Positions 10,130 through 30,548 of a DNA stretch of 64,000 bases are shown here, piece after piece; position 1 is the first letter of the stretch, and every line of letters begins with the position of its first letter. The notes below the pieces were generated by a model. That model was not told the origin of the DNA, made no database searches, and saw only the letters and a list, made by a program, of their open reading frames with translations. Both the position numbers and the translations under genes were made by a program. The stretch is from Escherichia coli (GTDB lineage: Bacteria > Pseudomonadota > Gammaproteobacteria > Enterobacterales > Enterobacteriaceae): the NCBI RefSeq assembly GCF_016026235.1, contig NZ_CP065613.1; one strand, 5' to 3'.

Positions 10130-10225
10130 TTAAATTCTAAAATAATCACGAAAAAAATTTTACTTCCGCCTCATGCGGCGAATGTGGGAATTGCCCAGGC
10201 GGCGGGGGATAGGGGCTGGAGACAG

Positions 10226-10248
10226 TTATCCACTATTCCTGTGGATAA
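10226..10248. promoter_or_regulatory. Pair of inverted DnaA-box-like 9-mers (ttatccact / tgtggataa) in the uvrB upstream region
   Basis: Matches to TTATNCACA; uvrB is reported to have a DnaA-regulated promoter. Confidence 0.45.
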
Positions 10249-10550
10249 CCATGTGTATTAGAGTTAGAAAACACGAGGCAAGCGAGAGAATACGCGGCTT
10301 GCACGCGAATTGGCGTTAAAGACGGCTCAAAGAAATATCTTTTATTTTTTAACTGGTTAGATAAATGCAATGGCAGTCACTGAACAGGCATCTCTTGCCA
10401 TAAAACTGTCATCACTCATCTTGACAAATGTTAAAAAAGCCGTTGCTTTGGGGATAACCCGGTAAGGCCGGAGTTTTATCTCGCCACAGAGTAAATTTTG
10501 CTCATGATTGACAGCGGAGTTTACGCTGTATCAGAAATATTATGGTGATG

Positions 10551-10570
10551 AACTGTTTTTTTATCCAGTA
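10551..10570. promoter_or_regulatory. LexA (SOS) box of uvrB: aactgtttttttatccagta
   Basis: CTGT-N8-ACAG-type motif about 80 nt upstream of the uvrB start. Confidence 0.8.
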
Positions 10571-10644
10571 TAATTTGTTGGCATAATTAAGTACGACGAG
10601 TAAAATTACATACCTGCCCGCCCAACTCCTTCAGGTAGCGACTC

Positions 10645-12666
<2,022 letters not shown>

Positions 12667-30528: not shown

Positions 30529-30548
30529 TATTGGCTGTTTATACAGTA
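30529..30548. promoter_or_regulatory. Non-canonical LexA box of dinG (tattggctgtttatacagta)
   Basis: CTG...CAG palindrome with shortened spacer about 20 nt upstream of the dinG start, consistent with the reported dinG SOS box. Confidence 0.6.

What the first reader, a model, noticed from the sequence alone, without database searches (positions are those of the whole stretch)
10226..10570. uvrB control region: DnaA-box pair plus LexA box
Two inverted DnaA-box-like 9-mers (ttatccact, tgtggataa) sit about 400 nt upstream of uvrB, and a canonical LexA box (ctgtttttttatccag) lies about 80 nt upstream. This matches the reported multi-promoter architecture of uvrB and shows that the 578-bp bioD-uvrB gap is regulatory rather than empty.
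Basis: partly seen in the sequence, partly recalled or inferred. Interest (0 to 1): 0.25.

Follow-up and report, generated by a model that had tools for sequence, protein, structure and literature searches.

The report
DARS1 and the uvrB promoters
The motifs are real, but this is a well-studied stretch of the E. coli chromosome: the DnaA boxes are the core of DARS1, a site that recharges the replication initiator DnaA, and the LexA box is the known SOS operator of the uvrB repair gene, so the finding is correct but ordinary.

Summary
TTATCCACT (10226-10234, +), TTATCCACA (10240-10248, -) and the LexA box (16-mer 10553-10568, 20-mer 10551-10570) lie in the 578-bp bioD-uvrB gap of E. coli. The gap differs from MG1655 at one base. 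Bare consensus counts are at chance, but formal tests are not. The head-to-head pair at 5-bp spacing is expected 7e-4 times per 64 kb. The LexA 20-mer scores 24.2 bits, top of the window by 10 bits, and no shuffle reached it.

The three boxes form the published core of DARS1. They have the same 5-bp and 3-bp spacings as DARS2. DARS1 strips ADP from DnaA to regenerate ATP-DnaA for replication initiation. The same boxes overlap uvrB promoter P3 and repress it. The LexA box fills the spacer of promoter P2.

The triple sits upstream of uvrB in 37 of 80 gammaproteobacterial loci. A strong LexA box is confined to Enterobacterales.

Two side observations may be new. An IHF-consensus site lies 83-87 nt after box III in most species but is degenerate in E. 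coli. A conserved TTATCCCCA box lies at the published DnaA ChIP-seq peak centre.

Novelty: already known.

The parts
10226..10234 (+). DARS1 core DnaA box I, TTATCCACT, one mismatch to the consensus. It is DnaA-box7 in Wurihan 2018.
   Evidence: Searches give sequence and score. It is invariant in 18 Enterobacterales. Its orientation is opposite to boxes II and III, as DARS is defined.
10240..10248 (-). DARS1 core DnaA box II, TTATCCACA, a perfect consensus. It is DnaA-box6 in Wurihan 2018.
   Evidence: Primer 1210 identifies this 9-mer as DnaA-box6. A TG-to-CA change here raises P3 activity 5.9-fold. It is the only full-consensus box of DARS1, as published.
10252..10260 (-). DARS1 core DnaA box III, TAATACACA, one mismatch to TTWTNCACA. 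It is DnaA-box5 in Wurihan 2018.
   Evidence: With box II it forms the 'double DnaA box' cTAATACACAtggTTATCCACAg listed for DARS1 in the ChIP-seq table.
10261..10326 (.). Conserved flank of the DARS1 core. It includes TTAGAAAAC (10264-10272, a possible degenerate box III') and AAGCGAGAGAATACGCGGCTTGC (10280-10302). It probably holds the published ~50-bp stimulatory region of the 101-bp DARS1.
   Evidence: The alignment is nearly gap-free across 20 Enterobacterales (one 1-nt indel), with invariant columns. No consensus RNA structure was predicted. The literature describes a stimulatory flank and a box III'. The assignment to these coordinates is my inference.
10219..10262 (+). Approximate position of uvrB promoter P3. 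Its core promoter overlaps the three DnaA boxes.
   Evidence: Wurihan 2018 places boxes 5-7 in uvrBp3, and the active P3 fragment runs from -567 to -280, which is window 10045-10332. The exact hexamers and start site could not be read (they are in a figure), and the consensus scan found no promoter here. These coordinates are inferred.
10347..10370 (+). Conserved block GTTAnATAAAnnCAA. Its 5' part (TTTTAACTGGTTA, 10347-10359) is a degenerate copy, with 2 mismatches, of an IHF-consensus site that is exact in many other species at the same offset from box III.
   Evidence: An RpoS-holoenzyme SELEX peak is reported near here, at about window 10368 if the paper uses older MG1655 coordinates.
10420..10437 (.). 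Conserved block CTTGACAAATGTTAAAAA, function unknown. It contains a perfect TTGACA but no usable -10 hexamer at 16-18 bp.
   Evidence: Identical or nearly identical in the ten sequences from E. coli to Erwinia in alignment A1. The sequence was read.
10449..10457 (-). Additional DnaA-box-like site, TTATCCCCA, one mismatch. It lies within the conserved TTTGGGGATAAC (10447-10458).
   Evidence: It is identical in 15 of 18 Enterobacterales and differs by one base in a sixteenth. The published DARS1 ChIP-seq peak centre, 813,331, maps to window 10450.
10551..10570 (.). LexA (SOS) box AACTGTTTTTTTATCCAGTA. It is LexA-box1 and the operator of uvrB promoter P2.
   Evidence: 24.2 bits and heterology index 4.1. 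Published as the uvrB SOS box. It is footprinted at the lowest LexA concentration. A TG-to-GC change gives about 3-fold derepression. It is conserved in 19 of 20 Enterobacterales.
10546..10581 (+). uvrB promoter P2. The weak -35 is around GATGAA (10547-10552) and the -10 is TATAAT (10569-10574). The start site is near 10581.
   Evidence: The LexA 16-mer fills the spacer between the two hexamers. The start site 31 nt upstream of P1 is from my memory of Sancar 1982, which is not held in the library.
10578..10612 (+). uvrB promoter P1. The -35 is TTGGCA (10578-10583), the -10 is TAAAAT (10601-10606) and +1 is 10612.
   Evidence: The promoter scan scores it 10 of 12. The +1 position was fixed by mapping four published primers and their stated coordinates onto the window.
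10645..12666 (+). uvrB coding sequence, 673 aa.

Best explanation
The 578-bp bioD-uvrB gap of E. coli holds two known, overlapping control systems.

(1) Three DnaA boxes form the core of DARS1: box I, then 5 bp, then inverted box II, then 3 bp, then box III. ADP-DnaA binds box II first. It then recruits protomers to box I (head-to-head) and box III (head-to-tail). The head-to-head contact makes the box I and box II protomers release ADP. The resulting apo-DnaA falls off and rebinds ATP, which raises ATP-DnaA for the next replication initiation. Because the same boxes overlap the upstream uvrB promoter P3, bound DnaA also represses P3.

(2) A high-affinity LexA box fills the spacer between the -35 and -10 hexamers of promoter P2. 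A LexA dimer there excludes RNA polymerase until RecA-stimulated LexA cleavage. P1, 31 nt downstream, gives basal expression.

Shown here: the sequences, their geometry, their significance, their mapping to published coordinates and their conservation. Taken from the literature for this essentially identical sequence: binding, ADP release, repression and phenotypes.
For: Identity. The window is E. coli. The gap matches MG1655 at 577 of 578 bases, and the difference (10071) is outside all elements.

Geometry. The window holds exactly one I-5-II-3-III triple, with mismatches of 1, 0 and 1. The same template finds the DARS2 core in the rppH-mutH gap, with mismatches of 1, 1 and 1, as published.

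Significance..

Mapping. Wurihan 2018 primers place P1 +1 at 10612. They identify box II as DnaA-box6 and the LexA box as LexA-box1.

Literature. DARS1 consists of these boxes. Boxes I and II release ADP, and this depends on DnaA Gln208. DnaA is detected at this locus by ChIP-seq. DnaA and LexA both footprint the region. Mutating box II raises P3 5.9-fold and mutating the LexA box raises P1-2 about 3-fold. uvrB induction by UV depends on LexA. Deleting DARS1 gives larger cells with fewer origins.

Conservation. The triple lies upstream of uvrB, on the same strand, in 19 of 20 Enterobacterales and 18 of 60 other gammaproteobacterial loci. It occurs nowhere else in 80 loci of about 4.6 kb each. 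Spacer lengths are fixed while spacer sequence varies outside Enterobacterales. The LexA box is conserved at -53 to -145 from the ATG in Enterobacterales. The core 60-mer is found in 5424 of 5426 complete E. coli genomes. In the one single-mismatch variant examined, the change is at 10219, outside the boxes.
Against: Nothing contradicts the identification. Four caveats apply.

(a) The published DARS1 ChIP-seq peak centre maps about 200 bp downstream of the core. This is the largest offset among nine peak-to-box pairs checked (the others are 1-147 bp). In vivo occupancy may therefore not be centred on the triple.

(b) P3 could not be located by consensus scanning. The primary papers that mapped it (Sancar 1982, van den Berg 1985, Fujimitsu 2009) are not in the library.

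(c) LexA boxes 2-4 and most of the extra DnaA boxes of Wurihan 2018 do not reach any formal threshold here.

(d) The widely used DARS1::cat allele removes about 440 bp (window ~10080-10519), so its phenotypes are not specific to the boxes.
Confidence: 0.93

Rival explanations
1. The DnaA boxes are only a transcriptional operator for uvrB promoter P3, with no role outside uvrB.
For: Mutating box II raises P3 activity 5.9-fold, and DnaA footprints the site. The triple is always linked to uvrB in the same orientation.
Against: The same three-box geometry occurs at DARS2, which has no uvrB. Published in vitro ADP release and replication phenotypes are assigned to this site. The triple persists where uvrB has no LexA box. 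In Pseudoalteromonas a MatE gene lies between it and uvrB. Repression needs one good box, not a fixed I-5-II-3-III arrangement.
Confidence: 0.05
2. The inverted boxes matter as an RNA hairpin, for example an intrinsic terminator or attenuator for bioBFCD read-through or for P3 transcripts.
For: The scan lists a 9-bp stem at 10225-10249 as terminator-like. As RNA it folds at -13.9 kcal/mol with z = -2.3.
Against: The tail CCATGTGTATT is a poor U-run. Stem, loop and the flanking third box are invariant, with no compensatory changes. In distant species the 5-nt spacer changes in sequence but never in length, which fits protein spacing rather than a hairpin. A stronger hairpin lies directly after bioD at 10078-10129.
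Confidence: 0.02
3. The gap encodes a small protein, such as the formerly annotated ybhU or the 48-aa + strand ORF at 10173-10319, and the conservation reflects coding sequence.
For: ORFs of 45 and 48 aa span the boxes. ybhU was once annotated here and its transcript is UV-induced like uvrB.
Against: Both frames carry in-frame stops in most orthologues, including E. albertii for the minus-strand frame and Citrobacter for both. Conservation is confined to the box region. Current RefSeq annotates no gene in the gap.
Confidence: 0.02
4. The motifs are chance matches in an A+T-rich intergenic region.
For: Single-consensus counts in the window are at chance level.
Against: The pair and triple architecture and the LexA PWM score are far beyond the shuffles. 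Both are conserved in orthologous positions.
Confidence: 0.005

Closest known systems
DARS1 (DnaA-reactivating sequence 1), bioD-uvrB intergenic region of E. coli K-12 (Fujimitsu, Senriuchi and Katayama 2009)
   Same: It is the same locus and effectively the same sequence. It has three boxes, with box I inverted relative to II and III and spacings of 5 and 3 bp. Box II is full consensus, and boxes I and III have one mismatch each.
   Different: Nothing differs in the core. The extent of the 101-bp minimal element could not be read from the primary paper, so the flank coordinates given here are inferred from conservation.
DARS2, rppH-mutH intergenic region of E. coli
   Same: The core geometry is identical: TTATTCACC-5-TGTGGATAG-3-TGTGAAGAA at L002 20212-20246. 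It has the same biochemical role.
   Different: DARS2 needs IHF and Fis sites. Its box II has one mismatch, and it is not next to a repair-gene promoter. In E. coli the DARS1 region has only a degenerate IHF-like sequence, although many other species have an exact one.
uvrB P1/P2/P3 promoter cluster with its LexA operator (Sancar 1982; van den Berg 1985; Wurihan 2018)
   Same: It is the same DNA. P1 +1 is at 10612. The LexA box lies between the P2 hexamers. P3 overlaps the DnaA boxes.
   Different: None. The extra LexA boxes 2-4 reported in 2018 score below 7.1 bits with the matrix used here and would not be called by formal scanning.
'Double DnaA box' sites (nrdA, polA, purH, mioC, datA; ChIP-seq study of 2024)
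   Same: Boxes II and III form a direct pair with a 3-bp gap, like those sites, and are listed with them.
   Different: DARS adds an inverted box I at 5 bp. That box creates the head-to-head contact needed for ADP release. The other sites are operators or titration sites.

Membership tests
DARS (DnaA-reactivating sequence) | [quoted passage not shown] | tested here: met
   The boxes are at 10226-10234, 10240-10248 and 10252-10260, with 1, 0 and 1 mismatches to TTWTNCACA.
DARS (DnaA-reactivating sequence) | Box I is oriented opposite to boxes II and III (head-to-head I/II, head-to-tail II/III) | tested here: met
   Box I is on the + strand. Boxes II and III are on the - strand.
DARS (DnaA-reactivating sequence) | The spacing between boxes is the same at DARS1 and DARS2 | tested here: met
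   One template with 5-bp and 3-bp gaps finds both the window site and the DARS2 core at L002 20212-20246.
DARS (DnaA-reactivating sequence) | DARS1 lies in the bioD-uvrB gap at 0.81 Mb of the E. coli chromosome | tested here: met
   The window maps to MG1655 at an offset of 802,881, and box II is at 813,121-813,129. The gap is 577/578 identical.
DARS (DnaA-reactivating sequence) | ADP-DnaA oligomerises on the core and releases ADP; deleting the site lowers ATP-DnaA and delays initiation | not testable with these tools
   This is reported for this sequence in the literature. It was not tested here.
DARS (DnaA-reactivating sequence) | DnaA occupies the site in vivo | tested here: inconclusive
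   A ChIP-seq peak (16x) is assigned to DARS1, but its centre maps to window 10450, 200 bp from the core.
LexA (SOS) box of Gammaproteobacteria | CTG-N10-CAG within a 20-mer close to TACTG(TA)5CAGTA, with a heterology index below about 15 | tested here: met
   AACTGTTTTTTTATCCAGTA scores 24.2 bits with a heterology index of 4.1 on my matrix. The published value is 4.26 and the threshold is 15.
LexA (SOS) box of Gammaproteobacteria | The box overlaps the core promoter of the regulated gene | tested here: met
   The 16-mer at 10553-10568 lies between GATGAA (10547-10552) and TATAAT (10569-10574) of P2.
LexA (SOS) box of Gammaproteobacteria | The box is conserved at the orthologous promoter | tested here: met
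   It scores 19-24.5 bits in 19 of 20 Enterobacterales, at -53 to -145 from the ATG. Salmonella uvrB has one box 73 bp from the ATG.
LexA (SOS) box of Gammaproteobacteria | LexA binds, and induction depends on LexA and RecA | not testable with these tools
   The literature reports a footprint at the lowest LexA concentration, about 3-fold derepression by the box mutation, and LexA-dependent UV induction.
Sigma-70 promoters uvrB P1, P2 and P3 | -35 and -10 hexamers at 16-18 bp, upstream of a mapped start site | tested here: inconclusive
   P1 is met: 10 of 12 matches, with +1 at 10612. P2 has a perfect -10 but a weak -35, and the scan did not call it. No P3 hexamers were identified.
Intrinsic (rho-independent) terminator | A G+C-rich stem followed by a U-run, with the stem kept by covariation | tested here: not met
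   The stem has 4 G-C pairs out of 9 and a poor U-tail, and it is invariant rather than covarying.
Rfam RNA families | A match to any curated covariance model | tested here: not met
   No match at E <= 1 in 9800-10900. RNAalifold predicts no consensus structure in the conserved flank.

The most novel reading that the evidence does not exclude
The uvrB-linked DARS1 may be ancestrally a larger, DARS2-like nucleoprotein module.

An exact IHF-consensus site (WATCAANNNNTTR) sits on the same strand, 83-87 nt after box III, in Enterobacter, Serratia, Erwinia, Photorhabdus, Pasteurellaceae, Aeromonas, Aliivibrio and others. It is exact in 15 loci and has one mismatch in about 13 more. In the background of the same regions there were no exact matches in 14,410 position-strands. 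In E. coli DARS2 the IHF site IBS1-2 lies at an offset of 73 nt.

Escherichia and Citrobacter carry only a degenerate copy. That would explain why E. coli DARS1 works without IHF.

A further conserved DnaA-like box (TTATCCCCA, 10449-10457) lies under the published ChIP-seq peak centre. DnaA occupancy in vivo may therefore extend beyond the 101-bp minimal DARS1.
Probability: 0.3. Interest if true: 0.45.

Novelty: already known. Interest (0 to 1): 0.12.

Why it matters
As reported, the finding rediscovers a textbook locus, so it adds nothing new. Its value is as a check that sequence reading alone can recover real regulatory sites.

The correction does matter for annotation. The DnaA boxes should be labelled DARS1, a replication-control element with measurable fitness effects, and not merely an accessory of uvrB.

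The comparative results give specialists two cheap, testable leads. The first is a possible IHF-assisted form of DARS1 in most Gammaproteobacteria. The second is a second conserved DnaA site under the ChIP peak.

They also carry a caution. One commonly used DARS1 deletion removes P3 and both of these elements along with the core.

Tried and rejected
- **Bare consensus scans.** Scans for DnaA and LexA motifs are at or near chance and cannot validate the finding. I replaced them with architecture counts and a position weight matrix.
- **Rfam.** The search of 9800-10900 found nothing.
- **RNA structure.** RNAalifold on the conserved flank 10261-10372 in 20 species gave no consensus structure. The 5'-UTR and the hairpin-like stretch at 10452-10490 are not better than shuffles.
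- **Small ORFs.** The ybhU-type ORFs have in-frame stops in orthologues.
- **Terminator reading of the box hairpin.** Rejected because of the invariance and the poor U-tail.
- **Promoter scan.** It did not find P2 or P3. P3 could not be placed exactly.
- **Primary papers.** Fujimitsu 2009, van den Berg 1985 and Sancar 1982 are not held. The paper cap stopped me from reading Kasho 2014.
- **LexA boxes 2-4 of Wurihan 2018.** No other 20-mer in the gap reaches the lowest score listed, 7.05 bits.
- **LexA matrix.** I built it from boxes recalled from memory. Sixteen of them were later confirmed verbatim by the table in PMC3009722, and two more.

Full report
**What is in the sequence.** The window is E. 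coli chromosome. A 701-bp query across the region matches 5424 of 5426 complete E. coli genomes, with bioD and uvrB annotated on either side. In the window, bioD ends at 10066 and uvrB starts at 10645, so the gap is 578 bp. The gap differs from MG1655 at one base, 10071. Window coordinate plus 802,881 gives the MG1655 (NC_000913.3) coordinate.

**Is it more than chance?** Plain consensus counting does not show it. TTWTNCACA occurs 4 times against 5.1 expected. CTGT-N8-ACAG with one mismatch allowed occurs 30 times. Formal tests do show it.
- A head-to-head pair of boxes, each within one mismatch of TTATCCACA and separated by 5 bp, occurs once in the window and in none of 150 shuffles. It is expected 7e-4 times per 64 kb.
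- I built a symmetrised LexA matrix from 26 other E. coli SOS boxes. I wrote these from memory. Sixteen were later confirmed verbatim by a published table and two more.
- With this matrix the uvrB 20-mer AACTGTTTTTTTATCCAGTA (10551-10570) scores 24.2 bits with a heterology index of 4.1. It is the best hit in the window by 10 bits, and none of 500 shuffled windows reached it.
- The known dinG box at 30529-30548 came out as a control. Published heterology indices for uvrB are in the same range (4.26).

**What the DnaA boxes really are.** There is a third box, TAATACACA on the - strand at 10252-10260, 3 bp after the second. The arrangement is box I (+), 5 bp, box II (-), 3 bp, box III (-). This is the defining core of a DnaA-reactivating sequence. 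The literature places DARS1 in exactly this gap and says it consists of these boxes. Its box II is the only full-consensus box, and the others have single mismatches. The window matches that description.
- The same search template finds the DARS2 core in the rppH-mutH gap of a K-12-like genome (TTATTCACC-5-TGTGGATAG-3-TGTGAAGAA). Its spacings are identical and each box has one mismatch, as published.
- According to that literature, ADP-DnaA assembles on the three boxes. The protomers on boxes I and II touch head-to-head through Gln208 and release ADP. Box III stabilises the complex head-to-tail. Apo-DnaA then leaves and binds ATP.
- Deleting DARS1 gives larger cells with fewer origins and a more active dnaA promoter.

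None of this biochemistry can be tested here. What I tested is identity of sequence, geometry and position.

**Relation to the uvrB promoters.** I mapped the primers and stated coordinates of Wurihan et al. 2018 onto the window. Primer 54 starts at 10045 (-567). Primer 57 ends at 10644 (+33). Primer 79 starts at 10535 (-77). Primer 71 ends at 10332 (-280). All four are consistent with P1 +1 at window 10612.
- **P1** is TTGGCA-17-TAAAAT (10578-10606), the only + strand promoter the scan called.
- **P2** has a perfect TATAAT at 10569-10574, and the LexA 16-mer exactly fills its spacer. [quoted passage not shown]
- **P3.** The mutagenic primer 1210 shows that their DnaA-box6 is box II. Changing its TG to CA raises P3 activity 5.9-fold, and mutating the LexA box raises P1-2 about 3-fold. 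Both proteins footprint the region.

The boxes do double duty, as DARS1 core and as P3 operator. I could not place the P3 hexamers: the scan finds none and the mapping papers are not held.

**Conservation.** I fetched 80 uvrB loci from across Gammaproteobacteria.
- The triple, with the same spacing and the same orientation relative to uvrB, is present in 19 of 20 Enterobacterales, 344-470 nt before the ATG. It is also present in 18 of the other 60 loci: four Pasteurellaceae, Aeromonas, Aliivibrio and many Alteromonadales.
- It occurs nowhere else on either strand of those loci.
- Within Enterobacterales the whole core is nearly invariant, including the mismatched last base of box I, mostly T and never the consensus A, and the ATTCC spacer. 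Further away the spacer sequence changes but never its length.
- In Pseudoalteromonas a MatE-family gene lies between the triple and uvrB.
- A strong LexA box (19-24.5 bits) is found at -53 to -145 in 19 of 20 Enterobacterales. Among the other 60 loci the best upstream hit passes 13 bits in only four, and only one of those is within 300 nt of uvrB. The DnaA triple is therefore the older and more widespread partner of uvrB.
- Within E. coli, the core 60-mer is present in 5424 of 5426 genomes. About half of them carry a single mismatch. In the one such variant examined, the change is at 10219, outside the boxes. This agrees with a published survey of 59 strains.

**Rivals.**
- The inverted boxes can fold as a hairpin (-13.9 kcal/mol, z -2.3), and the scan lists it as terminator-like. 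But the tail is poor and the element is invariant rather than covarying.
- The gap once carried a gene name, ybhU. However, the ORFs that span the boxes have in-frame stops in orthologues, and no gene is annotated there now.
- Rfam and RNAalifold find nothing.

**Other things in the gap.** The alignment of 18 Enterobacterales shows further conserved blocks:
- the flank right after box III (10261-10326), which probably holds the published stimulatory region and the degenerate box III';
- GTTAnATAAAnnCAA (10355-10370);
- CTTGACAAATGTTAAAAA (10420-10437);
- TTTGGGGATAAC (10447-10458), which is TTATCCCCA on the - strand.

Two of these deserve a note. First, the 13-mer starting 83-87 nt after box III matches the IHF consensus WATCAANNNNTTR. 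It matches exactly in 15 loci from four orders, plus one unclassified Enterobacterales genome, and with one mismatch in about 13 more. There were no exact matches in 14,410 background positions. E. coli, E. albertii and Citrobacter have only degenerate versions (TTTTAACTGGTTA, 10347-10359, in the window). In E. coli DARS2 a one-mismatch site lies at offset 73, next to the PciI site said to overlap IBS1-2. Published work says E. coli DARS1 needs no protein cofactor, which fits the decay of the site in this lineage.

Second, the ChIP-seq peak called DARS1 is centred at 813,331. I checked that the table uses NC_000913.3 coordinates, although its footnote says version 2. On that basis the centre is window 10450, on the TTATCCCCA box and 200 bp from the core. 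For eight other peak-to-box pairs the offset is 1-147 bp. The peak is weak (16x), so this is only a lead.

**Verdict.** Everything central here is already known. The IHF-like site and the second conserved DnaA box are side observations that may be new and are testable.

Noticed in passing
window 10347-10359; L008-L059 at 83-87 nt after box III: An IHF-consensus site (WATCAANNNNTTR) lies at a fixed offset from the DARS1-like core. It is exact in 15 loci from four orders plus one unclassified Enterobacterales MAG, and has one mismatch in about 13 more. It is degenerate in E. coli, E. albertii and Citrobacter. It lies outside the 101-bp minimal DARS1, and the papers I could read do not mention it.
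   Followed up: partly
window 10447-10458: TTTGGGGATAAC (TTATCCCCA on the - strand) is identical in 15 of the 18 aligned Enterobacterales and differs by one base in a sixteenth. It sits exactly at the published 'DARS1' ChIP-seq peak centre (813,331), 200 bp from the core. This is the largest peak-to-box offset of the nine I checked.
   Followed up: partly
window 10420-10437: The block CTTGACAAATGTTAAAAA is conserved in the ten sequences from E. coli to Erwinia in the alignment. It contains a perfect TTGACA but has no -10 hexamer at the right distance. Its function is unknown.
   Followed up: no
L091 (E. coli ZH063); junction at window 10411/10412: In this strain a prophage is inserted in the gap. 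Its genes include terminase large and small subunits, the small one of the P27 family. The insertion separates DARS1 and P3 from P2, P1 and uvrB.
   Followed up: partly
window 10078-10129: A long hairpin starts 12 nt after the bioD stop codon. It has a 14-bp stem, folds at -20.9 kcal/mol and has z = -4.9. It is present only in Escherichia. It could be the bio operon terminator or a repeat element.
   Followed up: partly
window 30529-30548: The known dinG/ybiB LexA box TATTGGCTGTTTATACAGTA scores 13.7 bits. I used it as an internal positive control.
   Followed up: yes
window 3639-3658: A LexA-like 20-mer, CGCTGGCTTTAAGTACAGTT, scores 14.3 bits with a heterology index of 10.0. It lies inside the ybhC coding sequence and is probably a chance or non-functional site.
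   Followed up: partly
L002 20528-20562 (E. coli rppH-mutH gap): A second DARS-like triple, TTATCCCAG-5-TGTGGATAA-3-GGTGTAAGA, lies 316 bp from the DARS2 core. Its boxes II and III are the double box listed for the strongest DARS2 ChIP-seq peak.
   Followed up: partly
L045 625-2004: In Pseudoalteromonas a MatE-family gene (Pfam E = 3e-50) sits between the DARS1-like triple and uvrB and overlaps the uvrB start. In L045 the triple therefore lies about 400 bp upstream of a likely two-gene unit. In several other Alteromonadales loci the triple is a similar ~1.7-1.8 kb from uvrB, but I did not check what lies between.
   Followed up: partly
window ~10080-10519: The DARS1::cat deletion of Frimodt-Moller 2015 was reused in later work. 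Judged from its primers, it removes nearly the whole gap: the core, P3, the IHF-like block and the TTATCCCCA box. Its phenotypes are therefore not specific to the three boxes.
   Followed up: partly
PMC11317965 Table 1 against L003, L004 and L085-L089: The footnote of the ChIP-seq table says the coordinates are NC_000913.2. All nine boxes I checked are found only if the coordinates are read as NC_000913.3.
   Followed up: yes
L065, L068, L073, L075, L077, L080, about 470-590 nt before uvrB: A 20-mer, TCCGGGTAGGACACCCAGTA and close variants, recurs upstream of uvrB in several non-enterobacterial Gammaproteobacteria. It may be part of a tRNA or another conserved RNA gene.
   Followed up: no
Two plasmid records in the E. 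coli collection carry a copy of the bioD-uvrB gap, including the DARS1 core.
   Followed up: no
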